Positions 1 through 19,502 of a stretch of DNA of 64,000 nt are shown in pieces; position 1 is the first letter of the stretch; each line of letters begins with the position of its first letter. A program made the position numbers and the translations under genes. The notes below the pieces were generated by a model. That model was not told the DNA's origin. It worked only from the letters and a program-made list of their open reading frames with translations, and did no database searches. Source of the stretch: a virus; IMG/VR virus record IMGVR_UViG_3300001202_000057, positions 1-64,000 of that record. One strand, written 5' to 3'.

Positions 1-28
1 TAAAAGAATTAAAAAAAGAACCAATACA

Positions 29-1038
29 ATGGCTCAAAAGAGAAAACTCGTAGGTGTAGTTGCTGCACCAATAAACAATAAAAGTCAAACCGGATTAAAT
101 TCAGCTTATATTGAATTTTTAAAGATAATGTTTAATACAGATGTTGTCATAATAGATGCTACTTCTGAGAAATTTTTTGAAGATTTAGATTTATTACTAC
201 TTCCTGGTGGAGCTGACGTAGATACATCTAGATATAATAGAAAACCTAGTAGACATACTCAAAGACCAAATATTTATTATGAATGGTTTGATACTAATAT
301 GTTAGGAAAGTATATTGATGCTAATATACCAATTTTTGGTATTTGTAGAGGATTTCAAACTTTATCTGTATATTTTGGATGTACATTGTCTCAACATATC
401 TCTCAAGCATATTCTGAAAACAGATATGAATTAGTAGATACTCAAATTTTAAATGTTGAAGCTATGAAGGAAGCAGGCTTTTCTATTAGAAGTTATATTA
501 AAATTAAAGGTAATTCAAAATTGAAAGCTATCAAAACTAATTCTATGCATCATCAAGGATTACGTGATGAAAATATTCCTCAAGATAGTTCTGTAATACC
601 TTTAGCTTATAATCATAGTAAAAATAATATAGAAGCTATGACTATTGAGGGTAAACCAATTATTGCCGTACAATGGCACCCTAAATCTTTGGGGCTCTAA
701 CTGGTGACAGTTAGATAAACTTTGCGTGAATTGTCTGGAAACCCATCTAAAAAGGGTAATCAGCAGCCAAGCTTACTTAGGAATGAGTTTGAAGGTTCAG
801 AGACTAGGAAACGACACCAGAACGGTGAGTAATTTTCCCACGAGCGCGCAATAACTATTAAAAATAAATAGTTAAAGATATAGTCCAATCCTATAAAATG
901 ATAAATTATAGGCCTAAGAGGTAAACTCTTTTAGAAATAAGTTCATCCCTCTTGGAAGAAATTTGGGATGAATTCTCAATCAACGCAATTGAATCATTAT
1001 TAGCTTACAAAGAATCTAAAATAGAAGAAATAGTATGA
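29..1038 (+). CDS. Class-I glutamine amidotransferase / peptidase C26 (gamma-glutamyl hydrolase-like), split gene: exon 1 29..682, exon 2 955..1038
   Basis: ORF 29..700 shows LLLPGGADVD, the nucleophile elbow GICRGFQ, NSMHHQG and AVQWHP, then reads into the intron (KSLGL*). Joining U682 to G955 gives QWHP|EEIWDEF..., restoring the catalytic His-Pro-Glu. The paralog at 18221..18877 has this uninterrupted as IQAHPE. The exon 2 frame ends at TGA 1036..1038, overlapping the next ATG (ATGA). Confidence 0.8.
683..954 (+). ncRNA. Group I self-splicing intron, no internal ORF (about 272 nt)
   Basis: The classical conserved elements occur in order: P-like aattgtctggaaac (729..742), Q-like aatcagcagcc (758..768), R gttcagagacta (795..806) and S aagatatagtcc (875..886). 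R and S can pair gacta/tagtc (P7). The internal guide 5'-tctttgggg-3' (686..694) pairs continuously with the ligated exons ccct|gaaga, with a U682-G691 wobble at the 5' splice site. G954 is the terminal G. P9-type hairpins lie at 890..896/906..912 and 916..920/926..930. Confidence 0.8.
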
Positions 1039-1880
1039 GTAAAATAGTAAATCCAACATTTGGATCAGACCCAGAATTTATAGCAATTAATATTGATACA
1101 CAACAACCAATTAGTTGTGTAGGTAAAATAGGTGGAACTAAACATGAACCATTATCTATTGGTGAAGGTTGTTCACGTCAAGAAGATAATGTTTTAGCAG
1201 AAGTATGTATTCCACCTGTAACTAATAAAAAAGATTTTGTTAAATATATTACTTATGCTAAAAATGAAGTAAATAAATTATTAACTAAATTTAATGCTAA
1301 ACTGATTAGTGCTTCATCTATGGAATACCCTAATGAAGAATTACAATCAAAAGCAGCTAGAAAATTTGGTTGTTCTGAATCATGGTGTGCTTGGACTGGT
1401 GAGAGTGTAGACGTACCACCTGCTGAAATGGTGGGCAATTTAAGAAGTGCTGGTTTCCACATCCACATAGGATTTAAAGGAGACATTGAAGACTTTGATT
1501 TAATAGAGACTCTAATTCGTAATATGGATAAGTACTTAGGTCTACCTTCTCTAATAATAGATCGTGATACTGATAGACGTAAAATCTATGGTAAAGCTGG
1601 TGATTTCAGAAGTGAAGAATTAGCTGATGATATTATTAAAATAGAATACAGAACTCTTGGTGCTAATATGGGAGCTACTGATGAGTTAATGGAATATTGT
1701 TTTGATCAAACTTTATTGGCTATTGAAGCTACAAATAGAGGAGAATCTCCTGATCCCGTAATTGAAAAAATTATTGATAACAGTGATTCAGAATCAGCAG
1801 CTCTTCTTATTGAAGAATATGGTATTAATCTACCAGGTATTTTTGTTGAAAATGAATTAAAAGTAGAACTACATGCCTAA
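1035..1880 (+). CDS. Carboxylate-amine (COOH-NH2) ligase, GCS2/glutamine-synthetase-like fold, phage phiEco32-type
   Basis: Motifs GSDPEF, GFHIHIGF and IEYRTLG match the E-x-E / H-x-H / E-x-R pattern of GCS2-like amidoligases. The ATGA overlap with exon 2 of the upstream gene indicates translational coupling. Confidence 0.6.
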   Translation: MSKIVNPTFGSDPEFIAINIDTQQPISCVGKIGGTKHEPLSIGEGCSRQEDNVLAEVCIPPVTNKKDFVKYITYAKNEVNKLLTKFNAKLISASSMEYPNEELQSKAARKFGCSESWCAWTGESVDVPPAEMVGNLRSAGFHIHIGFKGDIEDFDLIETLIRNMDKYLGLPSLIIDRDTDRRKIYGKAGDFRSEELADDIIKIEYRTLGANMGATDELMEYCFDQTLLAIEATNRGESPDPVIEKIIDNSDSESAALLIEEYGINLPGIFVENELKVELHA

Positions 1881-2322
1881 CAATTTAGATATTATTACTT
1901 ATGGCTCTTTGAGAAAAGGAGAATACAACTTTGATAGATTTCCTGGTATGATATATAATAGTACTCAAACTATTACAGGATACAAACTGTATTCTTTAGG
2001 ATCTTATCCAGGTGTTAAACCTACTGGAGATATTAATGATGTATTAATAGTAGATCATTTAACTTGTCCAGATCAAGAAACTAAAGATTCCATTAATAGA
2101 ATGGAAAGAGGAGCCGGTTATGCTGCTGTAACTCTAGTTTTACCAAATGGTGAATCAGGAGAATTTTATCCCTATTTAGGAAATGTAGAAGAAAAAAATC
2201 TAGTGCCTCACGGTGATTGGACAAAAAGACAATTAAGCAATGAAGAGTATATTAAAGAAAAAGAAAGTATTAAAGAAGAAGAAGGTAGTGCGCAAGCCAG
2301 TACAGAAATCTCCCAAGTCTAG
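1873..2322 (+). CDS. Gamma-glutamylcyclotransferase (AIG2/GGCT-like)
   Basis: N-terminal YGSLRKGEYNF (YGSL..G signature), a size of about 150 aa and an acidic C-terminal tail. It overlaps the upstream stop by 8 nt. Confidence 0.6.
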   Translation: MPNNLDIITYGSLRKGEYNFDRFPGMIYNSTQTITGYKLYSLGSYPGVKPTGDINDVLIVDHLTCPDQETKDSINRMERGAGYAAVTLVLPNGESGEFYPYLGNVEEKNLVPHGDWTKRQLSNEEYIKEKESIKEEEGSAQASTEISQV

Positions 2323-3103
2323 AGTTATTACTCGTAAGAGATGGCCTTCTACTATATTAAGAGTACTATCAAGACACCCATCTCATAAGCCATTAAGGAA
2401 TGAGCGTATCAGAACCTCAGTACCTACAGTTTTAAGATTGGGTTCTGAAACAGATTGGAGAAGGGCAGAAATAGAAATTAATACTGTGGCTGCTGTTCAA
2501 AACTCAGCTTCTAAATCTAGAATGAAAAGATGTTTTATCCAAGCAGGAGTAATTACTCCTAAATTTTATACTAGAGCTTCTTTACAAAGACTTACCAATG
2601 CTCAAAAAGAAGAAGCATTACCTATTATTGGTAAAAGAGTATTTGGTTCTAGAGCTCAAGGTATGGTAAAATTAGATACTTTAGCACAACTTAATGAGTT
2701 TTTAGCTACTCACAACAATGGTTATTTATATGAAGAGTTTGTCAACTATTCTCGTGAATATAGATTACATGTTTCTACCAGAGGTGTATGTTTCTATTCC
2801 TGTAGAAAAATGTTGAGAAATGAGATTACAGAAAGACGTTGGTTAAGAAATGATTCTAATTCTAATTGGATTATGGAAACTACTACTGAATTATTTAACA
2901 AGCCAGTTACTTGGAATGCTATTGTTGCAGATTGTGTAAGAGCTCTCAATGCAGTAGGATTAGATGTAGGTGCTTGTGATGTCAAAGTAGCCAAAGATGG
3001 CAGACATTCTATTATTGAAATCAATTCAGCTCCAAGTTTTGGTGATATTACTCTACAAAAGTATATCACTGAAGTAAAAGAGTTAATTAAAATTAAATCA
3101 TAA
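2240..3103 (+). CDS. ATP-grasp amidoligase (RimK-like). The start is uncertain: ATG 2240 or GTG 2288.
   Basis: IGKRVFGSRAQGMVKL, YLYEEFVNYSREYRLHV and DVGACDVKVAKDGRHSIIEINSAPSFG are typical ATP-grasp central and C-terminal motifs. The first ~28 codons overlap the GGCT gene and are Lys-rich, so the true start may be internal. Confidence 0.65.
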   Translation: MKSILKKKKVLKKKKVVRKPVQKSPKSRVITRKRWPSTILRVLSRHPSHKPLRNERIRTSVPTVLRLGSETDWRRAEIEINTVAAVQNSASKSRMKRCFIQAGVITPKFYTRASLQRLTNAQKEEALPIIGKRVFGSRAQGMVKLDTLAQLNEFLATHNNGYLYEEFVNYSREYRLHVSTRGVCFYSCRKMLRNEITERRWLRNDSNSNWIMETTTELFNKPVTWNAIVADCVRALNAVGLDVGACDVKVAKDGRHSIIEINSAPSFGDITLQKYITEVKELIKIKS

Positions 3104-3104
3104 T

Positions 3105-4847
3105 ATGTGTGGTATAATTGCTTACACAGGCAAACAAAGAATAGACATTGATAAGTTAAAATTACTTATGATGTTTTCTAGAAAAAGAGGTACTGATAGT
3201 TGTGGGTTTTGGTATAATGAAAAAAGAATTATTGGATATAATAGATTTGGAAATGGTTTAGATACTTCTGATTCAGTTAACTTATTTAAACATGTTATTT
3301 TTAAAAAGAGTAAAAATAGTAGAGTTAAAAATAAAACTGTTATTGCTCATACTAGACGTAAATCTTATGGCTTAGCCAAAGCTGAAAATGCCCATCCATT
3401 TGAAATTACAGATGATAATGATAACATATTAATAATAGGTTGTCATAATGGTACTTTACATAAATCTGGAATGAAACGTTTTTTAGAAAAATGGAAATTA
3501 GATTCTGAAGAACATGATGTTGATTCATATTTTTTACTTAAAGCTTTGGCTTTAAATAGAGACAATATGGGAGGTGTATTATCTAGTTATATAGGAACTG
3601 CTGCTCTAGCATTTAGCTTTCCTGATGATCCAGGTAGTTTATATCTTTGGTCTGGTGAATCCACTATTAACCAAAATACTTCTGCTAATCACATAGAGAG
3701 ACCTTTACATTACTATCAAAATAAAACTGGTATATATTTTGCCTCAGAAGAAAATTTCCTCACAGGAACATTCAATGTAGATTTAGAGGATATACAAGAG
3801 GTCCCTAGTAATACTTTGATGTATTTTAAAAATGGAGAGTTAATTGAATCTGTAAAATATAGTAGAGATAAAGCTTCTCAAGAGTTGTATTATAGTGTAC
3901 AAACTACTAATAATAGGATTAGAACTGACTATGGTCATGGAGCTTCAACTATAAAAAAGTTGCCAGCATCTACTCAGAAGAACTCTGGAGAACGAGATTC
4001 GATGCCATATTCAAGTAGAGAGAAAGCTTATAGTAGATTTTTAATGAGGCAGAAAAAGAATGCCACAAAACAAATTTTATTATTAAGTGACATCCCCACT
4101 CCAGTTAAAATTGCTAATAATAGAATATATGAGTGGAAACTCAGATATTGGAGAAATGGACATCTTGCAGAAGGAGAGTATTTATTATCTCCAGATGGAC
4201 TTGAAATATCTCCAAAAGATTTATTAAATGATCCTACTATTAAAGCTAAACTCTATTATTTTTATAAAGGTATAATGGTCTTTGATCAAAAAAGTATTGA
4301 TATATTAAAAACAATTAATGTTTCAGGATTAAAAAACTATTCTAGTTTACGTAAAATGTTAAATCCAGAACAAATACTTTTTAAAGGTGATAGAGATGTT
4401 TCTATTTATCATTTAGAAACTAAAGAGAAAGCTACTTCATTTTTTAGTAAAATACCTTTTTCATATTATAATTATAGAATAGAAGAAGGAGAATTACTTT
4501 ATGTACATTTAAAAGTTAAACATTCTAAGACATATGAACTTAAAGGTAAAAAATTAGTTTTAAAAGAAAATAGAACTAATAGTAAAATAGGGAATAAAAT
4601 ACCTTTAGATAATTTTATGTCTAATATTAAAAGAATTACAACTCCTTCTGAAGACATAAAAGGAAGATTTGACAATCTTCTTAATGAAGAAGATCAATTT
4701 ACTAATAAGATAAAATTATATAATCATTTTTGTGAAACACAATTTAAAACTTCTAAAGACTGCGACAACCACTTTGAGTGTCATTTGGGAATACCTTATG
4801 ATTGGAGTATGTCTCCCGAAGAAAATTGGATTCCTTTTACTGAGTAA
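3105..4847 (+). CDS. Class-II (Ntn) glutamine amidotransferase domain protein with a ~300-aa C-terminal extension of unknown function
   Basis: It starts MCGIIAYTG (Cys2 nucleophile after Met removal), followed by HTRRKSYG...NAHPF and GCHNGTL, which are typical of GATase type 2. The C-terminal half has no motif I recognise. Confidence 0.7.
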   Translation: MCGIIAYTGKQRIDIDKLKLLMMFSRKRGTDSCGFWYNEKRIIGYNRFGNGLDTSDSVNLFKHVIFKKSKNSRVKNKTVIAHTRRKSYGLAKAENAHPFEITDDNDNILIIGCHNGTLHKSGMKRFLEKWKLDSEEHDVDSYFLLKALALNRDNMGGVLSSYIGTAALAFSFPDDPGSLYLWSGESTINQNTSANHIERPLHYYQNKTGIYFASEENFLTGTFNVDLEDIQEVPSNTLMYFKNGELIESVKYSRDKASQELYYSVQTTNNRIRTDYGHGASTIKKLPASTQKNSGERDSMPYSSREKAYSRFLMRQKKNATKQILLLSDIPTPVKIANNRIYEWKLRYWRNGHLAEGEYLLSPDGLEISPKDLLNDPTIKAKLYYFYKGIMVFDQKSIDILKTINVSGLKNYSSLRKMLNPEQILFKGDRDVSIYHLETKEKATSFFSKIPFSYYNYRIEEGELLYVHLKVKHSKTYELKGKKLVLKENRTNSKIGNKIPLDNFMSNIKRITTPSEDIKGRFDNLLNEEDQFTNKIKLYNHFCETQFKTSKDCDNHFECHLGIPYDWSMSPEENWIPFTE

Positions 4848-4860
4848 GACACTTGAAATT

Positions 4861-6399
4861 ATGGGATTAAATATAGTAACATTTGATGGAACTTTATCTA
4901 AAAAATCTAAATGTATAATAATTGATAATGAATATTATATATTAGGTGATGTTAAGGTTAAAAATTCTGGACAATGTTTGAGATTAACACCAGATGGAGA
5001 GCCTATAAAACTTTCTTCTGGTGAAGTAGTTTGGGATCATGAAAATAATATTTATGATTATCGTAGAAAATTAATACATGGAGTTGTTTCAGCAAATAAA
5101 ACTGAAACAGTCCTTGGTTATTTTTCTCCAAACTTACTTGAAAATGTTAGTGTAATAACTGATACTAAATTTTATACTGCTTTAAATCAAAAATGTCTTG
5201 GTAGTTCTTTTAAAGAAGATATAATATCAGGATGGTTTTCTAGAAGTGTTCCTATTTCTAATAGAGTTAATACTAAAAATATTTCTCGTATAGTTTCTGA
5301 CATTAGTATTGGAGAAAAAAGAATGCCAGCAAAACAAAATTACAGAAGTATTTTTAAAAACACTTACAATGTTGAAGATGATAAGAGAATATTTGAAGCT
5401 CTTACTAAAACTTCTTTAAAAGCATTACCTAGTATTAAAAATACATTAAGTAAATATGAAAAGAATCTTTTTGACTATTCTATTGGAATAGAATTAGAGA
5501 CTATTTTTGGGAAAATACCAATGAAATACCTATTTAAATATGGTTTAATACCTCTTAGAGATGGTAGTATCAATGGTTTTGAATACACTTCAATACCTTA
5601 TAGACATAATAAAAAACTTTCTACATTGAAAGAAATTTGTGAAATGATGTCTAAAAGAACTGGAGTTAATAAGTATTGTAGTTTTCATATTCATTTTGGC
5701 AATGTGAATAAGGATAAACTATATATAATAGCTCTGTACATGTTGTGTTACCAATTACAACATGAGCTACATGAAATAGTTCCTCCTTTTAAAAAAGATC
5801 TTGAATATTTACGTAGTAAGAAAAAAGATCATTGTAAATTCTTAAATAGTTTATCATTATTTGATAACAGTATTTTTGAAGCTACTGGAAAAGAGGATTT
5901 TAACAAAAGAGTTGCAGAAGCATATTCTACTATCTTTAGTTTTTTAAATGAGAATAATAAACCTTCTCATCAATATAATAAGACTAACCAGTCTCATGTC
6001 AAGTCTGGTCAAGATAAATGGAATTTTACTACAAGGTATTATTTTGTTAATTTTTTAAACTTGTTATTTTCAAAAAGAGGTACTATTGAATTTAGGCTTC
6101 ATCACGGAACTGTAAACAAGTATAAAATAATTTATTGGACATTAATAAATTCTTTTATTCTTAAGTTTGCAGAAAACAATATCAAAGGCATTATTAATAA
6201 AGAATTTAAAGTTAATTTATCTGATATTATTACACAAACTTGTAAAGATGAAGATCTTGGTATAGCTTTGTTAGATTATATTAGAGAAAGAAAATCTTTA
6301 TTTTTAGATGACTATATGAATGGAAATCTCGGTGATACAGCTGATTTTATCAATGATCCAATGTATGTACATAACATGGGTAGAGAATTAGGTATATGA
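4861..6399 (+). CDS. Second GCS2-like amidoligase (Amidoligase_2-type)
   Basis: IGIELETIFG, RDGSINGFEYTS, SFHIHFG and TIEFRLHHGT give the E-x-E / H-x-H / E-F-R pattern. The ORF track begins at 4732 inside the upstream gene. ATG 4861, just after the upstream stop (4847), is the likelier start. Confidence 0.6.
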   Translation: MGLNIVTFDGTLSKKSKCIIIDNEYYILGDVKVKNSGQCLRLTPDGEPIKLSSGEVVWDHENNIYDYRRKLIHGVVSANKTETVLGYFSPNLLENVSVITDTKFYTALNQKCLGSSFKEDIISGWFSRSVPISNRVNTKNISRIVSDISIGEKRMPAKQNYRSIFKNTYNVEDDKRIFEALTKTSLKALPSIKNTLSKYEKNLFDYSIGIELETIFGKIPMKYLFKYGLIPLRDGSINGFEYTSIPYRHNKKLSTLKEICEMMSKRTGVNKYCSFHIHFGNVNKDKLYIIALYMLCYQLQHELHEIVPPFKKDLEYLRSKKKDHCKFLNSLSLFDNSIFEATGKEDFNKRVAEAYSTIFSFLNENNKPSHQYNKTNQSHVKSGQDKWNFTTRYYFVNFLNLLFSKRGTIEFRLHHGTVNKYKIIYWTLINSFILKFAENNIKGIINKEFKVNLSDIITQTCKDEDLGIALLDYIRERKSLFLDDYMNGNLGDTADFINDPMYVHNMGRELGI

Positions 6400-6827
6400 C
6401 AAATAAGAAACCTAGAAGTAATATAGGTAAACGTAATAGAAATAAAGGTAACAATTTTGAAAGGCAGTTAGCTAAACTTTTAAGAGAATATGGTTACAAG
6501 TATTGTAAGACTTCTAGGCAAGCATCAAGGCTTTTAGATGATTGTAAGATTGATATTTCTGGTATTAATATGATAATACAGGCTAAGGCTGGCTATAAAA
6601 GAGCTAGACCTAAGTATGATGTCATATTCAGAGAAATTAAAAAATGTATTAAAGATAATTTTCCTCCTAATCACACTATTCACAATTTACCAATTATATT
6701 GGTACATAAAATGGATGGTAGAAAACAAGAAAATTGGACTTGGACATTTAATCATGAAGATGTAAAGGAGTTAATTCTCCCTAATCTAATAAAAACTTTG
6801 AATGAACAGAATAGAGGAGTACTTTAA
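6396..6827 (+). CDS. Small basic PD-(D/E)XK nuclease, Holliday-junction-resolvase-like
   Basis: GNNFERQLAKLLREYGY ... DDCKIDISG ... IIQAKAG resembles the E / D / (E/Q)-x-K layout of Hjc-type resolvases. The ATGA overlap with the upstream gene indicates coupling. Confidence 0.4.
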   Translation: MTNKKPRSNIGKRNRNKGNNFERQLAKLLREYGYKYCKTSRQASRLLDDCKIDISGINMIIQAKAGYKRARPKYDVIFREIKKCIKDNFPPNHTIHNLPIILVHKMDGRKQENWTWTFNHEDVKELILPNLIKTLNEQNRGVL

Positions 6828-7836: not shown

Positions 7837-8510
7837 AAACAAGAGAAGGACTTACTATCACTCCTGGTAAAAGATATGATAATAAAACAGCTAGATACTT
7901 AGCTCCATGTCTCAAAGATTGGGGACAAGAATTAGAATCTAATACATTTTCTAATTATATTTTAGCTGTGGGTATAGGTGATAGTGAGTATAGTGAAGAA
8001 ATACCTGATAGAATATTTTTACTATTTGATGTTAATGGAAAACGTAGGTATAATAAATACCCACAAAAAAGTAATGCCAATTTTAAATTTGGTGAATATT
8101 TAGAATTTATAAAATATCATCCGGCTTATGTAGATGATTATGTATATGACAATATGCAAGATGGTAACCAGCATATGGTTATATTAACTCTACCTCAACA
8201 TTTTAAAGATTCTGAATTATTTGATAAATTTTTACAAGGTAGATATTCTGAAATGTATACATCTGAAGAGATGGAAAGATTATTTAGTAGAGTTCTATTG
8301 AAAGATAGAGTTAAAATAGATAATCCTCAATACTTAATAATCAACAAAGATCCAAACTACGAAGAAACATTTAGAGAAAAATTAATGGAGGATTTTGATA
8401 TTAATAGACCTACATATGACATATCTGATAGAGAATGGGATTATAAACCATTTTTATCAGAAGAAGTATTTAACTATGAGCAAAAAAACAAAATCAGCCT
8501 TACGCTATAA
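7830..8510 (+). CDS. Hypothetical protein (TTG start inferred)
   Basis: A 226-codon ORF in the co-directional gene array with no recognisable motif. The only start near the upstream stop is TTG 7830. Confidence 0.45.
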   Translation: MVKTREGLTITPGKRYDNKTARYLAPCLKDWGQELESNTFSNYILAVGIGDSEYSEEIPDRIFLLFDVNGKRRYNKYPQKSNANFKFGEYLEFIKYHPAYVDDYVYDNMQDGNQHMVILTLPQHFKDSELFDKFLQGRYSEMYTSEEMERLFSRVLLKDRVKIDNPQYLIINKDPNYEETFREKLMEDFDINRPTYDISDREWDYKPFLSEEVFNYEQKNKISLTL

Positions 8511-8850
8511 TATTGGTAAGGAAGACTTTAACTTAATTGATTATAAATCTCTAATACCTTTAATAAAGGTTATGGAGTTTGGGGAAAATAAATATTCCAG
8601 AAATAATTGGAAGCAAGGTGGTTTTAGTAAGGAGAGTATTTTAAACTCACTTTTAAGACACACAGCTAAACTATCTGATGCTGTTAGTAATAACACTTCA
8701 GAATTTGATGAAGAGTCATTTGTTCATCATATTGGTAGTATAATGGCAAATGCCATGTTTTATAGCCACTATTTTGTTGATACCCCCATTGACCCAGACG
8801 TCAATTGGGAAGAACATTTAAATAACATTCAAAAAAAATTTAAACAATGA
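8476..8850 (+). CDS. All-alpha NTP pyrophosphohydrolase-like protein (resembles the dATP/dGTP diphosphohydrolase N-terminal domain family)
   Basis: LIDYKSLIPLIKVMEFGENKYSRNNWKQGG...LNSLLRHTAKL...EESFVHHIGSIMANAMF follows the family pattern LIP..AL...V..FG..KY...NW..G....L.A.LRH......ESG..HL....N..F. ATG 8476 was chosen over the upstream-extended ORF-track start at 8395. Confidence 0.45.
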   Translation: MSKKTKSALRYNIGKEDFNLIDYKSLIPLIKVMEFGENKYSRNNWKQGGFSKESILNSLLRHTAKLSDAVSNNTSEFDEESFVHHIGSIMANAMFYSHYFVDTPIDPDVNWEEHLNNIQKKFKQ

Positions 8851-12237: not shown

Positions 12238-12347
12238 TATATTTTTCTAACAACATTAAAATTTTAAATCTATGTTTGCAAGAATGTGGAGACGTAGCAA
12301 CAAAGTGAAAGCTTTGATTGCTCCACGTCATTACTAATGATGTATTT

Positions 12348-12384
12348 AATGGGGGACTTGTTCCCCCATTATTTTATTTATTTT
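12348..12384 (+). terminator. Rho-independent terminator after nrdA
   Basis: Stem aatggggg (12348..12355) pairs with cccccatt (12363..12370) across a 7-nt loop, followed by attttatttatttt. Confidence 0.7.
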
Positions 12385-12433
12385 AATGTGAATAATAATA
12401 GGTGATTATCCAGATTATTTGTATATTCATAAT

Positions 12434-13114
12434 ATGAAAAGAAATTATTATTTTTACGTATTAAAAGACCCAAAAACTTTTGAAATAAGATATTTTGGAA
12501 AAACAATTAATTTAAATAAAAGATTAAAAGATCATATTTATGAATCAAAGAATTGTAATACACACAAATGTAATTGGATTAAATCTATAAATTTTAACCC
12601 AATTATTCAATGTGTATTTTTTCAAGAATGTACTATTAAAGAAAGTTCTAAAATAGAAAAAACTATTCTTAGAAAATTAATGAAAAAATTTAATCTTACT
12701 AATTCTTGGGATAACTGTATAGGAGCATTTAAAACAGGCAAGCTTGTACATCAATATGATTTAAAAGGTAATTTTATAAAAACTTTTGAAAATGCTACAC
12801 ATGCAGAATCTGAAACTGATGTTTATAACTCTAATATTCTTAGATCTTGTAAAAAATCTGGACCAAAAGGTATGGTTTCAGCAGGAAATTATTTATGGCT
12901 ATTTAAAAAGTATAAAAAATATCCTTATCCACTAAAAAGAAATAATGGAGAAAAACCAATTATACAATATGATTTAAATGGCAATTACATAAAAGAATTT
13001 ATTTCAGCCAGAGAAGCTTCTAAAAAATTAAATATTAATTATAAATTAATCTCTCGTGTTTGTAGAGGTAAAAGAAATAAAACTTGTGGATACAAATTTA
13101 AATTTAAAACCTAA
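12434..13114 (+). CDS. Free-standing GIY-YIG homing endonuclease with two NUMOD/IENR-like DNA-binding repeats
   Basis: YYFYVLKDPKTFEIRYFGKT (GIY...YIG), then KRLKDH and a conserved Glu in IEKTILRKL. Repeats VHQYDLKGNFIKTFENATHAE and IIQYDLNGNYIKEFISAREASKKLNINYKLISRVCRGKR are present. The ORF track starts at TTG 12419, but ATG 12434 is likelier. Confidence 0.8.
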   Translation: MKRNYYFYVLKDPKTFEIRYFGKTINLNKRLKDHIYESKNCNTHKCNWIKSINFNPIIQCVFFQECTIKESSKIEKTILRKLMKKFNLTNSWDNCIGAFKTGKLVHQYDLKGNFIKTFENATHAESETDVYNSNILRSCKKSGPKGMVSAGNYLWLFKKYKKYPYPLKRNNGEKPIIQYDLNGNYIKEFISAREASKKLNINYKLISRVCRGKRNKTCGYKFKFKT

Positions 13115-14629: not shown

Positions 14630-15451
14630 ATGGAAATAATAAAATATCCAGATAAATCTAGTTATGTAACTGTTGACCCTAAAGAAAAAGGTAAAAATAT
14701 AATTTTTAAAATTAACAGTTATGAAGATCTTTGGCATCTTAACCAATATGTAGATGCTCTGAATAATGTAGGAGTAACACCACACATCATCATACCTTGT
14801 TTAATTGATGCACAAGCAGATAAAAGATTTGCTAATAATCAATCTTCTGGATTGTTATTAGTCACTAGATTATTAAATAGTATGAAAGCTACTTTTACAA
14901 TATTTCATCCACATAATCCAGAGGTACTAGAATCATTAATGCCTAATGTTAAAATTATAAATAATACAGAATATATTAAAACTGTACTTAAAAAACTTGG
15001 TCAAACAGATGGAACTGATGAAAGTATGATATTAATGTCTTCTGATGCAGGTGGTTTTAAACCACTTATGAATTTGTGTAAAGAACTTAATTGGAAAGGG
15101 TTAACTTATAGTGCAGCTAAACATAGATCATGGAGCTTAGCTGATGGAACTAAGTTTATACAAGAAATAGGCAGGAGAGATTTTGAGAAAAAAGATATTT
15201 TAATCATAGATGATTTATGTATTTATGGTGGGACATTTAAAGGATTATCTTCTATACTTAGAGATAGAAATGTAGGTAATTTATATTTAGCTACTACGCA
15301 CGCAACAATTCAAAATTTGGGAGATGACCCAGTAACTAATTACTTTGACCGAGTATTTTTCACTAACAGTAAACATGACAGTTATGGGACTTCAGACAAA
15401 TCTGAAGAATTAAAACCTATTGGTAACTTAGATGTTTTAGATTTATTTTAA
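14630..15451 (+). CDS. Ribose-phosphate pyrophosphokinase-like protein; candidate ADP-ribose pyrophosphokinase (Adps of NARP1)
   Basis: PCLIDAQADKRF (compare Prs PY..YARQDR) and the PRTase loop ILIIDDLCIYGGTF. It is placed 1 nt upstream of the NAMPT-like gene. Confidence 0.7.
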   Translation: MEIIKYPDKSSYVTVDPKEKGKNIIFKINSYEDLWHLNQYVDALNNVGVTPHIIIPCLIDAQADKRFANNQSSGLLLVTRLLNSMKATFTIFHPHNPEVLESLMPNVKIINNTEYIKTVLKKLGQTDGTDESMILMSSDAGGFKPLMNLCKELNWKGLTYSAAKHRSWSLADGTKFIQEIGRRDFEKKDILIIDDLCIYGGTFKGLSSILRDRNVGNLYLATTHATIQNLGDDPVTNYFDRVFFTNSKHDSYGTSDKSEELKPIGNLDVLDLF

Positions 15452-15452
15452 T

Positions 15453-17096
15453 ATGAAAATGACTAAAGAGTTGATGACTCTGATAATGATGCTGACTGAT
15501 GCCTACAAGCTTTTTCATCGTAGGATGTATCCTGCTAACACAGTAAGAGTGTATTCAAATAATACATTCAGAAGTATGAAGCATTATCCTGGAAAGAATA
15601 AAAAATATGGTATAGTTTTTGGTAATCAGAAATTGGTTATAGACCTTAAGGATAAGTTTGATGAATTTTTTGCAATGGATTGGCCTGTAGTAGCTGAGTT
15701 TTTAAAAACTCAATTAGATTCCTTCACAGGAACAGATTATGAGATTGAGCATATTAAATATCTCCACAGTCTTCAATACCTACCTATGGTATTTAAATCA
15801 CTGCCTGAAGGTACTAAGTGTCCTGTAGGAGTACCTAATCTTACTTTCTACAATACTGATGAAAAATGTTTTTGGTTGACCAACTTTTTAGAAACTTGGT
15901 TATCTAATAATGGTTGGCAAGGTCATTTCTCAGCTACTATGTCTAATGAGTATAGAGAAATTCTAGAACATTGGGCTATGAAAACTACAGGTAGTATTGA
16001 GAATGTACCTATTCAAGGTCATGATTTCTCTATGAGAGGTATGGGTGGTTCAGATGTAGCATTAGCTTCAGGTATGGGACATCTTACATCATTTGTAGGA
16101 ACAGATACAGTACCAGCATATTTAGGTATGCAATATTACTATGATAGTGGTATTAACAGATGGGCAGATTTAGCTACTCAAGGTTGGATGAATGCTATTG
16201 TGGGTACTTCAGTACCAGCAACAGAACATTCAGTACAATGTGCTCACTGGAATGAGAAAGCTATGACTGAAGCAGGTCATACTGATGAATTAGAATACTT
16301 AGATTACATATTAGCCAAATTCCCGACGGGGATAGTTTCTATTGTATGTGATGGATTTGATTTCTGGACATTTATTACAATCACTTTACCTAAACGTAAG
16401 TCTGTTATTATGGCTAGAGATGGTAAAGTAGTAGTAAGACCTGATTCAGGTAATCCTGCTGATATTATCTGTGGTATATCAGGTTATAATACTTATGATG
16501 CGTATTATAAAATGGAATATGCTCAACCTACTGAAAGAGGAATAGCAGATGTAAATGAATATAAAGGAGCAGTAGAATGTCTTTGGGATATATTTGGTGG
16601 AACTACTAATGATTTAGGCTATAAAGAACTAGATTCTCATATTGGCCTAATTTATGGAGATTCTATTACACTAGATTTATGTAATGAAATCTGTTCTAAG
16701 CTAACTGATAAAGAATTTGCATCTACTAATTGGGTAGCTGGTATAGGTAGTTTTACTTTTAGATTTGCTACTAGAGATTCAATGGGTGGAGCTTATAAAG
16801 CTACACATATTCAATTAGAAGAAGAAATTTATCATGGAGCCCCTACTACTCCATACACTGCGATAGTAGGTAAAAACATCTTCAAAGATCCTAAAACTGG
16901 AGACGGTACTAAAAAATCTGCTAAAGGTCTACTACGAGTTTATGAAGACAAAGTAGGGACATTAGTTCTTCAAAATGAAGTCTCAGAAGAAGATGAAAGA
17001 ACAGGAGAATTAAAAATAATTTTTCAAGATGGAGAATTATATAATCAAACTAATCTCTTTGAAATCAGAAACAGAATTACCAACAGAGAAAATTAA
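15453..17096 (+). CDS. Nicotinamide phosphoribosyltransferase-family protein; candidate nicotinamide ADP-ribose transferase (Namat of NARP1)
   Basis: LLTDAYKLFH, GHDFSMRGMGG, VPATEHSV, VVRPDSGNP and LIYGDSI are NAMPT/NadV family motifs along the full 547-aa length. Confidence 0.8.
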   Translation: MKMTKELMTLIMMLTDAYKLFHRRMYPANTVRVYSNNTFRSMKHYPGKNKKYGIVFGNQKLVIDLKDKFDEFFAMDWPVVAEFLKTQLDSFTGTDYEIEHIKYLHSLQYLPMVFKSLPEGTKCPVGVPNLTFYNTDEKCFWLTNFLETWLSNNGWQGHFSATMSNEYREILEHWAMKTTGSIENVPIQGHDFSMRGMGGSDVALASGMGHLTSFVGTDTVPAYLGMQYYYDSGINRWADLATQGWMNAIVGTSVPATEHSVQCAHWNEKAMTEAGHTDELEYLDYILAKFPTGIVSIVCDGFDFWTFITITLPKRKSVIMARDGKVVVRPDSGNPADIICGISGYNTYDAYYKMEYAQPTERGIADVNEYKGAVECLWDIFGGTTNDLGYKELDSHIGLIYGDSITLDLCNEICSKLTDKEFASTNWVAGIGSFTFRFATRDSMGGAYKATHIQLEEEIYHGAPTTPYTAIVGKNIFKDPKTGDGTKKSAKGLLRVYEDKVGTLVLQNEVSEEDERTGELKIIFQDGELYNQTNLFEIRNRITNREN

Positions 17097-17696: not shown

Positions 17697-18224
17697 ATGA
17701 AATTTATAGATTATAAAGAAATAATAAAAAAGACAGCTAAATTTCCCACTTCACTAAACAGTAGATCTTACTGCTTAATGGGGTTATTTGGTGAATTTGT
17801 AGAATTTTTAGAAAAAAGAATTGATCCTTCATCTTCTAGAAAAGATCTTAAAAAAGAATTAGGTGATGTTTTTTGGTATCTTACAGCATTGTGTTCAGTG
17901 TTGGGTAGTGATGTTATGGAAATTATTCCTACTGCAGAACTCTCTAAAAGCAGTTTCACAGCTTCTAAGAATAGATTTATTATAAATTATGGTAAATTAT
18001 CAGAAGTAATTAAAAAGGTTTATAGAGACAACAATAGTATTAATAAGGAGATAAATGATGTCTTTCTTAGAAGTATGATGTTATCTCTATATAATCTAAG
18101 CACTTTATCTGGATTTACTGTAGAAGAAGTCTTAGAGACTAATTATAATAAATTAATTAAAAGACGTGAAACTAATACTTTATTAGGTAGTGGTGATAAC
18201 CGTGAAGAAATAATTGTAGTATGA
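17697..18224 (+). CDS. mazG: MazG-family nucleoside triphosphate pyrophosphohydrolase
   Basis: GLFGEFVEFLEK, KELGDVFWYLTALC and NYNKLIKRRETNTLLGSGDNR give the E..E...E..D core plus the C-terminal N..KL..R...G.GD.R. Confidence 0.8.
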   Translation: MKFIDYKEIIKKTAKFPTSLNSRSYCLMGLFGEFVEFLEKRIDPSSSRKDLKKELGDVFWYLTALCSVLGSDVMEIIPTAELSKSSFTASKNRFIINYGKLSEVIKKVYRDNNSINKEINDVFLRSMMLSLYNLSTLSGFTVEEVLETNYNKLIKRRETNTLLGSGDNREEIIVV

Positions 18225-18877
18225 TAAAAGTATTTGTACCCGGTCTTAGAAGTGGTAGTACTAGTTTCTCTAGTTGGATAGATGATGGAATACCAGTAGC
18301 AACTTTGGAAGAAGCAGATTTAATGGTTTTACGTGGAGGACAAGATATTAATCCTGTTATCTATGGAGATCATAGTTTACATCCTCAAACTCAAGAACCT
18401 AATAGAACTAGAGATTTTAGTGAATTAGTATATTGTATTAGAGCTGAAAGAATGGGTATTCCAATAATTGGAATATGTCGAGGAGCACAAATGTTAAGTG
18501 GTTTTTCTGGTAATAGATTAGTACAACATGTAAATAATCATACTGGAGAAGGACATGATATGTATACCATAGATGGTAAAAAATTTGTTATTAATTCACT
18601 ACACCATCAAATGCAATGGCCTATTAGAAAAGATGCTGAAGTATTAGCATGGGCTGATAGATCTACTGTTAGAGAAGATGAAAATGGAGAGCAAGTATTA
18701 GATAGAGATATAGAAGTAGTTTACTATGGAAATATTAATTCTTTAGGAATACAAGCCCATCCAGAATTTGAGACTAATGGACCAGTCTTAACATGGTATA
18801 ATGATATAATCAGAGAATATTTATTCTCTAAAAAAAATAAATTTGAAAAAGAAATTGAAAATAGCATTAGATGTTGA
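18221..18877 (+). CDS. Class-I glutamine amidotransferase / peptidase C26 (intron-less paralog of 29..1038)
   Basis: LRGGQDINP, GICRGAQML, NSLHHQM and GIQAHPEFE give an intact Cys-His-Glu triad. Confidence 0.8.
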   Translation: MIKVFVPGLRSGSTSFSSWIDDGIPVATLEEADLMVLRGGQDINPVIYGDHSLHPQTQEPNRTRDFSELVYCIRAERMGIPIIGICRGAQMLSGFSGNRLVQHVNNHTGEGHDMYTIDGKKFVINSLHHQMQWPIRKDAEVLAWADRSTVREDENGEQVLDRDIEVVYYGNINSLGIQAHPEFETNGPVLTWYNDIIREYLFSKKNKFEKEIENSIRC

Positions 18878-19406: not shown

Positions 19407-19434
19407 AAACCATAATTGAATTTATATTAAAAAA

Positions 19435-19460: not shown

Positions 19461-19502
19461 TATATTTTAGGCTTAGTAGTTTTTTTTATCTCTGCCTATT
19501 TA

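What the first reader, a model, noticed from the sequence alone, without database searches (positions are those of the whole stretch)
29..6399. Six-gene gamma-glutamyl / amidoligase cassette of unknown product
Six consecutive, translationally coupled genes encode:
- a class-I GATase/C26 gamma-glutamyl hydrolase (intron-containing);
- a GCS2-like COOH-NH2 ligase;
- an AIG2/GGCT gamma-glutamylcyclotransferase;
- an ATP-grasp ligase;
- an Ntn class-II GATase with a long unknown C-terminal domain;
- a second GCS2-like amidoligase.

That makes three ATP-dependent amide-bond-forming enzymes plus three enzymes that make or break gamma-glutamyl or amide bonds. As I recall, comparative genomics by Iyer, Aravind and co-workers (2009) predicted that phiEco32-type phage cassettes of this kind synthesise a peptide-like metabolite or attach amino acids to a protein or other macromolecule. 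To my knowledge no product or target has been shown biochemically.

Possible roles, all inference:
- a gamma-glutamyl-tagged virion or host protein;
- remodelling of glutathione, polyamine or peptidoglycan precursors;
- amino-acid decoration of a nucleotide or DNA base.
Basis: partly seen in the sequence, partly recalled or inferred. Interest (0 to 1): 0.8.

Follow-up and report, generated by a model that had tools for sequence, protein, structure and literature searches.

The report
Phage amide-ligase cassette, product unknown
This is a real, intact copy of a gene cluster already described in many lytic phages (three ATP-dependent amide-bond ligases plus gamma-glutamyl/amide hydrolases, usually called a putative peptidoglycan-modification module), found here in an uncultured crAss-like phage; what it makes is still unknown.

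Summary
The first gene is interrupted by a 272-nt group I intron that separates the catalytic His from the catalytic Glu. Corrections:
- the last gene most likely starts at ATG 4861, not GTG 4732;
- a seventh member, a second C26 paralogue, lies 12 kb downstream at 18221-18877.

The window comes from a 117-kb crAss-like phage contig, probably with a Bacteroidota host. The same gene set lies between primase and UDG/recombination genes in Cellulophaga phage phi14:2, crAssphage cr108_1 and about 80 IMG/VR contigs. It also occurs in PaP3/LUZ24-like podoviruses and a cyanophage. The class II GATase and Amidoligase_2 genes are adjacent in 84 of 84 loci. C26 + COOH-NH2 ligase and GGCT + ATP-grasp also tend to stay together when gene order changes.

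The cassette is not new. Papers from 2017 to 2025, citing Iyer et al. and Hardies 2013, call it a "peptidoglycan modification cassette". No paper I found shows a product.

My best reading is a cytoplasmic, early-expressed pathway that builds and trims a gamma-glutamyl or peptide-like small molecule. Protein tagging and DNA modification are not excluded.

Novelty: new member of a known kind. Interest: moderate.

The parts
29..682 (+). Exon 1 of the C26a gene (class I glutamine amidotransferase / gamma-glutamyl hydrolase type). It encodes M1-P218, including the nucleophile Cys106 (GICRG) and His217.
   Evidence: Peptidase_C26, E 7e-29. C106, H217 and P218 are conserved in at least 80% of 67 homologues. 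The unspliced frame runs into a stop at 698-700, giving WHPKSLGL*.
683..954 (+). Group I intron, 272 nt, with no ORF. It is inserted between the Pro and Glu codons of the catalytic His-Pro-Glu motif.
   Evidence: RF00028, 91.5 bits, 672-906. Read from the sequence: U682 pairs with G691 as a U.G wobble in P1 (CCCU/GGGG), G954 serves as omega-G, and P10 forms between 955-959 GAAGA and 686-690 UCUUU. A terminal hairpin spans 917-953. The closest relative, L006, has the gene uninterrupted.
955..1038 (+). Exon 2 of C26a. It encodes EEIWDEFSINAIESLLAYKESKIEEIV and supplies the triad Glu219. The stop TGA overlaps the ATG of the next gene.
   Evidence: The spliced 245-aa product aligns through WHP|EE with intact homologues, for example L006 ...AAVQWHPEELDSSQFSDNLINWLMDYKE. 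E219 is conserved in at least 80% of homologues.
1035..1880 (+). COOH-NH2 ligase type 2, a phiEco32-like carboxylate-amine ligase of the glutamine synthetase / GCS superfamily; 281 aa.
   Evidence: PF14395, 1.2e-7; phrog_3815, 8e-49. It is 33-38% identical to the genes of cr108_1, PaP3, phi14:2 and Lbo-JY46. Invariant D12, E14, E56, R137, H142, H144, R181, E204 and R206.
1873..2322 (+). AIG2/GGACT-type gamma-glutamyl(amine) cyclotransferase; 149 aa.
   Evidence: PF06094, 2e-9; phrog_2520. The YGxL motif (Y10, G11, L13) and E78 are conserved among 68 homologues.
2240..3103 (+). ATP-grasp ligase, RimK-like / R2K-like, 287 aa from ATG 2240 (the public gene call uses GTG 2288). It has a strongly basic N-terminal tail and an SRHPSH motif.
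   Evidence: phrog_2599, 1e-29; rimK_fam, 5.5e-9, and MptN, 1.4e-7, both below cut-off. Conserved E157, R159, H161, K174, D231 and E244. Median net charge of the first 50 residues is +8 across 72 homologues, against -1 to +3 for the other cassette proteins.
3105..4847 (+). Class II (Ntn) glutamine amidotransferase domain (~1-255), a disordered linker, then a family-private C-terminal region (~336-580) with an LRYWRNGH motif; 580 aa.
   Evidence: GATase_6, 4e-7. Invariant C2, R28, G29, R84, N95, H97, P98, H114, N115, G116 and D140. The AlphaFold N-domain matches GlmS, PurF, AsnB and EgtC at E 1e-10 to 1e-7. The C-terminal 250 aa finds only 5 representatives among 1.84 billion, each C-terminal to the same GATase domain.
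4861..6399 (+). Amidoligase_2, a carboxylate-amine ligase of the glutamine synthetase / GCL fold, with an N-terminal beta-rich domain (~1-130); 512 aa. The ORF is open back to GTG 4732.
   Evidence: PF12224, 1.5e-9. M1 is conserved in at least 90% of 43 homologues; invariant E211, E213, D234, E241, H276, H278, R392, E410 and R412. Model pLDDT 88.5. The only fold neighbours are GshF, GS, YbdK, gamma-GCS and PafA/Dop, and these matches are weak (E 8e-4 and worse).
18221..18877 (+). C26b, a second class I GATase / C26 paralogue with an intact GICRG...HPE triad. It is the orthologue of the copy that sits next to the COOH-NH2 ligase in most related phages.
   Evidence: Peptidase_C26, 1.7e-18. Its best matches are the ligase-adjacent copies in L041, L072, L063 and cr108_1, whereas C26a matches the copies next to GGCT/ATP-grasp. 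It is 33% identical to C26a over 72 residues.

Best explanation
The cassette is a phage-private, cytoplasmic enzyme set that makes and trims amide bonds around glutamate or glutamine. It is expressed early. In rearranged genomes its genes tend to travel as ligase + hydrolase pairs:
- C26 + COOH-NH2 ligase;
- GGCT + ATP-grasp;
- class II GATase + Amidoligase_2.

The mechanism I think most likely is as follows. Each ligase activates a carboxylate with ATP, as an acyl-phosphate, and joins it to an amine. This builds a short gamma-glutamyl-containing peptide or amide on a small-molecule acceptor. The cysteine hydrolases (C26a, C26b and the Ntn GATase) and the cyclotransferase then act in one of two ways: they remove gamma-glutamyl groups used as temporary handles, or they deliver amide nitrogen from glutamine to the ligase next door.

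The acceptor is unknown. The published guess is a peptidoglycan stem-peptide precursor. A polyamine, another amine or a cofactor-like acceptor fits the enzyme families equally well.

Shown here: family membership, conserved catalytic residues, gene linkage and restriction to phages.
Taken from papers on relatives: early expression.
Inferred: every chemical step and the substrate.
For: 1. All seven proteins keep their catalytic residues across 60-85 homologues. The Glu of the C26a triad is restored only by splicing. These look like working enzymes under selection.

2. Linkage. GnAT2 and Amidolig2 are neighbours in 84/84 loci, C26 and COOH-NH2 ligase in 57/65, and GGCT and ATP-grasp in 33/63. 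The pairs persist when their order is permuted in the window, in L060 and in PaP3.

3. The best-characterised relatives of each family act on small molecules, and they form ligase/hydrolase pairs of just this kind. From established knowledge: PuuA/PuuD, EgtA/EgtC, BtrJ/BtrG and GshA-GshB/GGCT. Tool support comes from fold hits to EgtC, GlmS, PurF, GshF, YbdK and gamma-GCS and NCBIfam hits to PuuD, gamma-glutamyl-CDP-amidate hydrolase, RimK, MptN and LysX (all below cut-off).

4. No transmembrane segment or signal-like N-terminus is present (maximum KD19 1.33), so the enzymes act in the cytoplasm.

5. The homologous cassette of Pseudoalteromonas phage HP1 is 'expressed immediately'. SU10 proteomics lists the ATP-grasp, GATase and YtfP proteins as early gene products.

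6. A scan of 185,579 species genomes found the COOH-NH2 ligase in only four MAG contigs. Three carry all three ligase families with the GATases; the fourth (L089) shows no Amidoligase_2 hit. Two sit beside phage-type primase or exonuclease genes.

7. The region has no intrinsic-terminator-like site stronger than a weak 6-bp stem between 1 and 9900.
Against: - No product, substrate or phenotype is known for any member.
- Most family hits to characterised enzymes are far below curated cut-offs, and fold matches for the ligases are weak (E ~1e-3). Substrate inference by analogy is therefore soft.
- The 85 loci are mostly related crAss-like genomes, so adjacency partly reflects inherited synteny rather than selection.
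- The cassette contains no Mur-type ligase or UDP-sugar-binding domain, which weakens the peptidoglycan version.
- GGCT and C26 enzymes are known for L-gamma-glutamyl substrates, not D-isoglutamate.
- The RimK-like ATP-grasp has a conserved, very basic tail, which fits a macromolecular polyanionic target better than a small molecule.
- The genes always sit in the replication module, between primase and UDG.
Confidence: 0.45

Rival explanations
1. Specific published version: the enzymes rebuild cytoplasmic peptidoglycan stem-peptide precursors. This could add unusual peptide linkages or amidate the D-Glu / meso-DAP carboxylates. The infected cell's wall would then either exclude superinfecting phages or be primed for the phage's own lysis enzymes. 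This is a subset of the best explanation and is scored here on its own.
For: - Secondary literature attributes this hypothesis to Iyer et al. and Hardies 2013.
- ATP-grasp (Ddl-type) ligases, gamma-glutamyl amide bonds and glutamine-dependent amidation (MurT/GatD, AsnB/LtsA) are the chemistry of stem peptides (established knowledge).
- Early expression in HP1 suits superinfection exclusion.
- Identified hosts of carriers are Proteobacteria, Bacteroidota and cyanobacteria, which generally have meso-DAP-type walls (my knowledge).
Against: - No Mur-ligase-family member, no UDP-MurNAc- or lipid-binding domain, and no membrane or periplasmic targeting.
- The closest characterised relatives of the hydrolases act on L-gamma-glutamyl amides.
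- No muropeptide data exist more than ten years after the proposal.
- A paper on viruses of Poseidoniales archaea, which lack peptidoglycan, mentions amidoligase and GATase genes. I could not read it.
Confidence: 0.25
2. Protein tagging: the ligases add glutamate or other amino-acid tags, or a short peptide, to a host or phage protein. Possible targets include a ribosomal protein, RNA polymerase or a virion or replication protein. The C26, Ntn and GGCT enzymes would trim or erase the tags.
For: - The ATP-grasp's nearest named families are RimK (which poly-glutamylates ribosomal protein S6), LysX (which ligates to a carrier protein) and the R2K clade, which is predicted to modify proteins in phage-host conflict.
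- Its N-terminus is conserved and strongly basic (+8 median, +20 in the window), as expected for binding an acidic protein, a ribosome or a nucleic acid.
- The amidoligase fold group includes the Pup ligase PafA and the depupylase Dop.
- GGACT-type enzymes process epsilon-(gamma-glutamyl)-lysine (cited).
Against: - No conserved small tag or target gene accompanies the cassette. ORFs interspersed in relatives are lineage-specific or are homing endonucleases.
- The PafA/Dop fold hits are the weakest in the list (E > 0.4).
- The R2K_2 and RimK hits are below threshold.
Confidence: 0.2
3. Nucleic-acid decoration: the cassette attaches an amino acid or amine to a nucleotide or DNA base of the phage genome, as protection against host nucleases.
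For: - In crAss-like genomes the cassette always sits inside the replication and nucleotide-metabolism block, between primase and UDG / RusA-like / exonuclease / RNR genes.
- Lee et al. 2021 note amidoligase and amidotransferase genes of unknown role next to thymidine-hypermodification genes in viral contigs.
- ATP-dependent amide ligation onto a DNA base has a precedent in CmoY, which belongs to a different family.
- The ATP-grasp has a basic tail.
Against: - No enzyme that would create a handle on a base was found among the ORFs scanned in the + strand block of the window, nor in the 9 kb upstream. That covers dUMP/dCMP hydroxymethylase, 5-HMUDK kinase, aGPT-Pplase, TET/JBP, DpdA and CmoX-type methyltransferase.
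- DNA of the LUZ24-like carrier U17 was cut by 11 of 16 restriction enzymes and was the most sensitive of four phages tested.
- The papers read here on cultured carriers (PaP3/LUZ24-like phages, SU10/phiEco32-like phages, HP1) report no DNA modification. This is an argument from silence.
Confidence: 0.1

Closest known systems
phiEco32 / RIO-1 / LUZ24-PaP3-type 'peptidoglycan modification cassette' of lytic podoviruses (Iyer et al. 2009; Hardies et al. 2013; Duhaime et al. 2017)
   Same: Same protein families: COOH-NH2 ligase type 2, Amidoligase_2, ATP-grasp, class II GATase with a C-terminal extension, and AIG2/GGCT. Other carriers described in the literature also have a class I GATase. The genes are clustered among early/replication genes of a lytic phage. 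The COOH-NH2 ligase is 35% identical to PaP3 orf48.
   Different: - The host virus here is a ~117-kb crAss-like phage rather than a 45-77-kb podovirus.
- The order of the pairs is permuted.
- There are two C26 paralogues, one displaced by 12 kb.
- The C26a gene carries a group I intron.
- PaP3's orf47 (which sits where a class I GATase would be), orf49 and orf50 show no detectable similarity to anything in this cassette.
Cassette of Cellulophaga phage phi14:2 (g037-g041) and crAssphage cr108_1 (gp028-gp034), Crassvirales, Steigviridae
   Same: The neighbourhood is syntenic: primase, then cassette, then UDG / RusA-like / PD-(D/E)XK exonuclease / RNR. Protein identities are 26-40%. The GnAT2 then Amidoligase_2 order is identical.
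   Different: - phi14:2 has no class I GATase annotated in the stretch examined.
- cr108_1 lacks a recognisable GGCT and has two extra unknown genes.
- In the window, UDG lies upstream rather than downstream.
- There is no DNA-level similarity.
Gamma-glutamyl 'handle' pathways of cellular metabolism: Puu (PuuA/PuuD), ergothioneine (EgtA/EgtC), butirosin (BtrJ/BtrG), glutathione cycle (GshA, GshB, GGCT)
   Same: The same fold pairings occur: a GS/GCL-fold or ATP-grasp ligase installs a gamma-glutamyl amide, and a C26, Ntn or cyclotransferase enzyme removes it. Fold and profile hits point to these families.
   Different: Similarity is at superfamily level only, below every curated cut-off. The phage cassette has no oxidase, methylase or other tailoring enzyme between ligation and removal. 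It combines all three pair types in one cluster, an arrangement I know of in no cellular pathway.
Glutamine-dependent carboxylate amidation pairs (MurT/GatD, AsnB, NadE)
   Same: A glutaminase is encoded next to, or fused with, an ATP-dependent carboxylate-activating enzyme. The invariant GnAT2-Amidolig2 adjacency would fit an ammonia-channelling pair.
   Different: The activating partners here have the glutamine-synthetase fold, which is not known to take ammonia from a GATase subunit. The C26 family is typically a stand-alone hydrolase. No interaction was tested.

Membership tests
phiEco32/RIO-1-type phage amidoligase ('peptidoglycan modification') cassette | COOH-NH2 ligase type 2 (PF14395) present | tested here: met
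   PF14395, 31.7 bits against a cut-off of 25; phrog_3815, 8e-49; 35% identity to PaP3 orf48.
phiEco32/RIO-1-type phage amidoligase ('peptidoglycan modification') cassette | Second ligase of the Amidoligase_2 family (PF12224) and an ATP-grasp ligase in the same cluster | tested here: met
   PF12224, 38.6 bits against a cut-off of 22. The ATP-grasp is supported by phrog_2599, 1e-29 and 36-40% identity to the phi14:2, cr108_1 and Lbo-JY46 genes; its Pfam ATP-grasp hits are below threshold.
phiEco32/RIO-1-type phage amidoligase ('peptidoglycan modification') cassette | Class II GATase with C-terminal extension, GGCT/AIG2 and class I GATase accompany the ligases | tested here: met
   The same set is listed for UFV-P2/LUZ24, PaP3 and HP1.
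phiEco32/RIO-1-type phage amidoligase ('peptidoglycan modification') cassette | Located among early / replication genes of a virulent tailed phage and expressed early | tested here: inconclusive
   The location criterion is met: primase upstream, nucleases and RNR downstream. Timing cannot be read from sequence. Early expression is reported only for HP1 and SU10.
phiEco32/RIO-1-type phage amidoligase ('peptidoglycan modification') cassette | Modifies peptidoglycan peptide side chains (the function that gives the module its name) | not testable with these tools
   This is a hypothesis only in every paper read. No Mur-type or envelope-targeting feature is present.
Group I self-splicing intron | Matches the group I covariance model above the curated threshold | tested here: met
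   RF00028, 91.5 bits against 50, full-length model 1-253.
Group I self-splicing intron | U.G pair at the 5' splice site in P1, omega-G at the 3' end, and P10 with the 3' exon | tested here: met
   Read from the sequence: U682.G691, G954, and GAAGA(955-959) paired with UCUUU(686-690).
Group I self-splicing intron | Removal restores a conserved reading frame | tested here: met
   The spliced product aligns without a gap through WHPEE with uninterrupted homologues, and the gene then ends in an ATGA overlap with the next gene.
Group I self-splicing intron | Splices in vivo or in vitro | not testable with these tools
   Needs RT-PCR or an in-vitro GTP-dependent splicing assay.
Peptidase C26 / class I glutamine amidotransferase | Cys-His-Glu catalytic triad | tested here: met
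   C26a has C106, H217 and E219, the last only after splicing. C26b has GICRGAQ ... AHPE.
Class II (Ntn) glutamine amidotransferase | N-terminal nucleophile Cys directly after Met, oxyanion Asn-Gly, and Arg/Asp that bind the alpha-carboxylate and alpha-amino groups of the glutamyl substrate | tested here: met
   MCGI...; invariant C2, R84, N115-G116 and D140 in 15 homologues. Fold matches to GlmS, PurF, AsnB and EgtC, E 1e-10 to 1e-7. Assigning individual residues to these roles is by analogy with GlmS (my knowledge).
Class II (Ntn) glutamine amidotransferase | Fused or partnered synthase domain of a known type (PRTase, SIS, Asn synthetase) | tested here: not met
   The C-terminal 250 aa has no Pfam, PHROG or PDB match. 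It occurs only in this protein family.
Phage DNA hypermodification pathways (5-hmdU / 5-hmdC / 7-deazaguanine / carboxymethyl-C derived) | An enzyme that installs the primary handle on the base: hydroxymethylase, TET/JBP, DpdA, CmoX or 5-HMUDK | tested here: not met
   None was found among the ORFs scanned in window 1-19.4 kb or in the precomputed Pfam calls for the 9 kb upstream. The rest of the 117-kb contig was not examined.
Known anti-phage defence system components (PADLOC) | Match to a defence-system profile | tested here: not met
   No hit for any of the seven proteins at E <= 0.01.

The most novel reading that the evidence does not exclude
The cassette may have nothing to do with peptidoglycan. 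It would instead be a phage-only three-module machine: three ligases, each working with a dedicated gamma-glutamyl or amide hydrolase. On this reading it builds a product of a kind not yet described. One candidate is an amino-acid or polyamine adduct on a macromolecule, such as replicating DNA, a ribosomal or replication protein, or a nucleotide pool. Another is a counter-defence metabolite. Under strong selection, lytic phages as different as 45-kb podoviruses and 100-kb crAss-like viruses would then keep it. The evidence leaves this open:
- a conserved position between primase and UDG;
- a strongly basic ATP-grasp tail;
- a private C-terminal domain on the GATase;
- near-absence from cellular genomes;
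- repeated invasion of its genes by homing introns.
Probability: 0.3. Interest if true: 0.75.

Novelty: new member of a known kind. Interest (0 to 1): 0.4.

Why it matters
If someone determined the product, it would explain a gene set that takes up 6-7 kb, more than a tenth of a PaP3-type genome. The set is kept by many therapeutic-candidate Pseudomonas and E. coli phages and, as shown here, by a large group of crAss-like phages. The answer could reveal a new way for a virus to rewire host chemistry: wall remodelling, a new metabolite, or a new macromolecular mark.

This window adds little leverage of its own, because the phage is uncultured. Cellulophaga phage phi14:2, LUZ24/PaP3, phiEco32 and HP1 carry the same genes and can be grown.

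Three points go beyond what I found in the literature:
- the spread of the cassette across crAss-like genomes;
- a tendency of the genes to stay together as ligase/hydrolase pairs;
- introns that repeatedly target the cassette genes.

Tried and rejected
- **DNA similarity.** Megablast of 1-6500 against 50,697 phage records found nothing.
- **Solved structures.** Sequence searches of four of the proteins (both GS-type ligases, the ATP-grasp, the class II GATase) against the PDB gave only superfamily-level or noise hits.
- **GATase C-terminal domain.** No Pfam or PHROG match. The AlphaFold model is only moderately confident there (pLDDT 55-84 for 336-480). The fold search was dominated by the N-domain. 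A search of 1.84 billion representatives found five proteins of the same architecture. No functional clue emerged.
- **Amidoligase N-terminal beta domain.** It is modelled confidently but has no fold neighbour.
- **An eighth conserved component.** I clustered the unlabelled ORFs that lie inside cassettes of 85 loci. The clusters are lineage-specific or are LAGLIDADG homing endonucleases. hhalign found no link between them, PaP3 orf47/49/50, the 318-aa upstream ORF and the cassette families; the only weak link was cl0-cl6 at 72%.
- **The two GS-type ligases.** hhalign between them gave no significant match (6%), although they share a C-x-x-H-x-H-x-G motif.
- **Defence-system profiles.** PADLOC gave no hits.
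- **Link to NAD salvage.** In Lbo-JY46 the cassette abuts PncB/PrsA, and the window has a PRS+NAMPT pair 8 kb away. However, PRS was found within 10 kb in only 2 of 85 loci and NAMPT in none. I rejected this as a general association.
- **Cellular homologues for context.** A scan of 185,579 genomes returned only four phage-like MAG contigs.
- **Primary sources.** Iyer 2009 and Hardies 2013 are not held.

Full report
**What is there**

Positions 29-6399 of the + strand carry six tightly packed ORFs.

| ORF | Family | Evidence |
|---|---|---|
| 29-700 | Peptidase_C26 / class I GATase | E 7e-29 |
| 1035-1880 | phiEco32-type COOH-NH2 ligase | PF14395, 1.2e-7; phrog_3815, 8e-49 |
| 1873-2322 | GGACT/AIG2 cyclotransferase | 2e-9 |
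| 2240-3103 | ATP-grasp ligase | phrog_2599, 1e-29; RimK family, 5.5e-9; Pfam hits below threshold |
| 3105-4847 | Class II GATase, then ~330 unassigned residues | GATase_6, 4e-7 |
| 4732-6399 | Amidoligase_2 | 1.5e-9; phrog_2443, 5.5e-24 |

None has a transmembrane segment, and none has a close solved structure.

The catalytic residues expected for each fold are conserved across 15-85 homologues:
- Cys2, Arg84, Asn115-Gly116 and Asp140 in the Ntn domain;
- the Glu/His/Arg constellation of glutamine-synthetase-type ligases in both ligases;
- the YGxL motif and Glu78 in the cyclotransferase;
- Cys106, His217 and Glu219 in the C26 enzyme.

**The intron**

Rfam finds a full-length group I intron at 672-906, scoring 91.5 bits against a gathering score of 50. 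Reading the sequence, I place the splice sites as follows:
- The 5' splice site lies after U682, which pairs with G691 in a CCCU/GGGG P1 helix.
- The 3' splice site lies after G954.
- The first five exon-2 bases (GAAGA) can pair with UCUUU at 686-690, forming P10.

The intron is 272 nt and has no ORF. Splicing joins ...AVQWHP to EEIWDEF...EEIV. The frame then ends in a TGA that overlaps the ATG of the next gene.

The 245-aa product aligns without a gap to uninterrupted homologues. The closest relative, L006, reads ...AAVQWHPEELDS. The intron therefore splits the catalytic His-Pro-Glu motif. The unspliced message would give an enzyme lacking the triad glutamate.

**Corrections to the coordinates**

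- The amidoligase ORF is open from GTG 4732. However, the public gene call and 43 aligned homologues start at ATG 4861, with M1 conserved in at least 90%.
- The ATP-grasp gene starts at ATG 2240 or GTG 2288.
- A second C26 gene with an intact triad lies at 18221-18877. It is only 33% identical to the first over 72 residues. It is the orthologue of the copy that sits beside the COOH-NH2 ligase in most related phages. The intron-bearing copy corresponds to the one usually found beside GGCT/ATP-grasp. The system therefore has seven genes here, one of them displaced by 12 kb.

**Where it comes from**

- The COOH-NH2 ligase sequence is found on one 116,892-bp contig, from run SRR2835678.
- Directly upstream of the window lie a primase, an unknown 318-aa gene and a UDG-like gene.
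- Downstream are a RusA-like protein, a PD-(D/E)XK exonuclease, a MazZ-like pyrophosphatase, ribonucleotide reductase, a PRPP-synthetase-like + NAMPT-like pair, and MazG.
- The - strand from 19.5 kb onward encodes giant proteins of 4496, 2008, 1537 and 1385 aa.
- The 1385-aa protein has relatives in Flavobacterium psychrophilum phages, Cellulophaga phages and crAssphages.
- There is no DNA-level match to any deposited phage.

This is a divergent crAss-like phage, probably of a Bacteroidota host.

**How widespread and how linked**

The same genes occur in several places:
- in synteny in Cellulophaga phage phi14:2 (g037-g041) and crAssphage cr108_1;
- in PaP3 and the LUZ24-like phages;
- in a Leptolyngbya phage;
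- as the COOH-NH2 ligase alone, in 306 phage records.

A scan of IMG/VR with the amidoligase alignment gave 80 loci, mostly from contigs of about 100 kb. Iterated HMM searches over these plus five reference loci gave the following counts:

| Family | Loci (of 85) |
|---|---|
| GnAT2 | 85 |
| Amidoligase_2 | 84 |
| ATP-grasp | 79 |
| COOH-NH2 ligase | 76 |
| C26 | 67 |
| GGCT | 63 |
| All six | 48 |

The usual order is primase, GGCT, ATP-grasp, C26, COOH-NH2 ligase, GnAT2, Amidoligase_2, UDG.

Adjacency counts are GnAT2 with Amidoligase_2 in 84/84 loci, C26 with the COOH-NH2 ligase in 57/65, and GGCT with ATP-grasp in 33/63. These pairs survive rearrangement:
- The window has the order pair 2, pair 1, pair 3.
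- L060 has moved C26 + ligase upstream of primase.
- PaP3 keeps Amidolig2 + GnAT2 and ATP-grasp + GGCT adjacent, with the order inside each pair inverted.

One caveat applies. Most loci are related genomes, so part of this signal is inherited synteny.

In relatives the cassette genes are often split by introns that carry LAGLIDADG endonucleases. This affects the COOH-NH2 ligase in six loci, as well as UDG, C26 and the amidoligase. That fits the window's intron and suggests conserved, important target sequences.

A scan of 185,579 species genomes found the ligase in only four MAG contigs. Three carry all three ligase families with the GATases (no Amidoligase_2 hit in L089), and two lie next to phage-type genes.

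**What is already known**

The primary sources (Iyer et al. 2009; Hardies et al. 2013) are not in the library. Later papers describe this gene set clearly:
- Duhaime et al. 2017 call it a seven-gene "peptidoglycan modification cassette". They report it as shared by RIO-1, phiEco32, 7-11, PA11, tf, MR299-2, LUZ24, PaP3 and CW02, and hypothesise that it blocks superinfection.
- A 2025 paper repeats this and adds the idea that it creates endolysin targets or weakens the wall.
- A 2023 paper attributes the cell-wall idea to Iyer et al..
- In phage HP1 the genes are "expressed immediately".
- SU10 proteomics lists three of the proteins as early gene products.

I found no paper that shows a product, a substrate or a knockout phenotype. 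No paper held both 'crAss-like' and 'amidoligase'.

**How it most likely works**

The secure part is this: seven soluble, apparently active enzymes, comprising three ATP-dependent carboxylate-amine ligases and four enzymes that cleave gamma-glutamyl or glutamine amide bonds. They are inherited together, often as ligase + hydrolase pairs. The rest is inference.

The same fold pairings recur in cellular pathways that use a gamma-glutamyl group as a temporary handle or build gamma-glutamyl peptides (established knowledge): PuuA/PuuD, EgtA/EgtC, BtrJ/BtrG, and GshA-GshB with GGCT. The tool hits point to these superfamilies, though always below family cut-offs.

I therefore favour stepwise assembly and trimming of a gamma-glutamyl or peptide-like compound in the cytoplasm early in infection (confidence 0.45). 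A variant is that the two GATases feed ammonia to their neighbouring ligases.

My confidence in each reading (the peptidoglycan version is a subset of the first, so the figures are not additive):

| Reading | Confidence |
|---|---|
| Small-molecule gamma-glutamyl / peptide-like pathway as a whole | 0.45 |
| of which: peptidoglycan precursors (the published idea) | 0.25 |
| Protein tagging | 0.20 |
| DNA or nucleotide decoration | 0.10 |

The peptidoglycan idea is weakened by the lack of any Mur-type or envelope-directed feature.

Protein tagging gains some support from two observations. The ATP-grasp is RimK-like, and its basic N-terminus is conserved (median +8 in the first 50 residues, +20 here).

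DNA decoration is suggested by the fixed position between primase and UDG and by remarks in Lee et al. 2021. Two findings count against it. No handle-installing enzyme was found in the regions examined. DNA of a LUZ24-like carrier was cut by 11 of 16 restriction enzymes.

**Verdict**

The cassette is a further member of a known but biochemically unsolved phage module, so it is neither a discovery nor an artefact.

Three points go beyond the literature I could read:
- its wide presence in crAss-like phages;
- a tendency of the genes to stay together as ligase/hydrolase pairs;
- the repeated invasion of its genes by introns.

Cheap decisive experiments exist in cultured carriers: nucleoside LC-MS, muropeptide analysis, metabolomics and proteomics of deletion mutants.

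Noticed in passing
window 14630-15451 and 15453-17096 (+): Adjacent PRPP-synthetase-like (273 aa) and NAMPT-like (547 aa; phrog_448, 2.8e-150) genes. From memory, this two-gene layout resembles the NARP1 NAD+-reconstitution counter-defence pair (Osterman et al. 2024). I did not test that. Leptolyngbya phage Lbo-JY46 has PncB and PrsA right next to its copy of the cassette.
   Followed up: partly
window 18221-18877 (+): A second Peptidase_C26 paralogue lies far from the flagged span, after MazG. It is orthologous to the cassette-internal copy of most relatives.
   Followed up: yes
L038, L056, L064, L071, L074, L082 (COOH-NH2 ligase); L042/L044/L055 (UDG); L082 (amidoligase); several C26 genes: In related viral contigs the cassette genes and UDG are split into two ORFs with a 237-294-aa ORF between them. 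Representatives of these inserts are LAGLIDADG homing endonucleases. The cassette is a hotspot for mobile introns.
   Followed up: partly
window 2240-2420 (+), N-terminus of the ATP-grasp protein: A lysine/arginine-rich tail (MKSILKKKKVLKKKKVVRKPVQKSPKSR...) is followed by a conserved SRHPSHxxLR motif. The positive charge is conserved across 72 homologues and is absent from the other cassette proteins. The binding partner is unknown.
   Followed up: partly
window 12419-13114 (+), with hairpin 12347-12371: A free-standing GIY-YIG + NUMOD1 homing endonuclease gene lies just after the ribonucleotide reductase large-subunit gene. A strong terminator-like hairpin precedes it.
   Followed up: no
window 8395-8850 and 17697-18224 (+): Two all-alpha NTP pyrophosphohydrolases are present. 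One has the dATP/dGTP diphosphohydrolase N-terminal domain (MazZ-like, 3.7e-17) and the other is MazG-like (6e-12). No PurZ-like gene was seen among the ORFs scanned.
   Followed up: no
window 19503-63184 (-): A run of giant ORFs (1537, 4496, 709, 498, 1385... 2008, 1014 aa) is mostly without PHROG hits. The 2008-aa protein has no tblastn match in 50,697 phage records. The 4496-aa ORF is exceptionally long for a phage.
   Followed up: partly
window 19434-19461 (both strands): A perfect 11-bp stem hairpin scores as a terminator on both strands. It lies exactly where the + strand and - strand gene blocks converge, and GC skew changes sign there.
   Followed up: no
window 49328-50593 (-): An SbcD/Mre11-like DNA repair exonuclease gene (phrog_704, 3.9e-54) sits inside the - strand block otherwise filled with presumed virion genes.
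   Followed up: no
L005 7363-8319 and 8261-9019 (just upstream of window position 1): The window edge hides two genes. One is a UDG-like gene (homologous to the UDGs of cr108_1 and phi14:2) directly before the cassette. The other is a 318-aa ORF found in only two loci.
   Followed up: partly
L086-L089 (genome contigs): The only 'bacterial genome' hits to the COOH-NH2 ligase are MAG contigs labelled Peptococcaceae, Pedobacter, Acetivibrio and Alcanivorax. All four carry most of the cassette families, and L086 also has primase and exonuclease genes. They are probably phage contigs binned into MAGs.
   Followed up: partly
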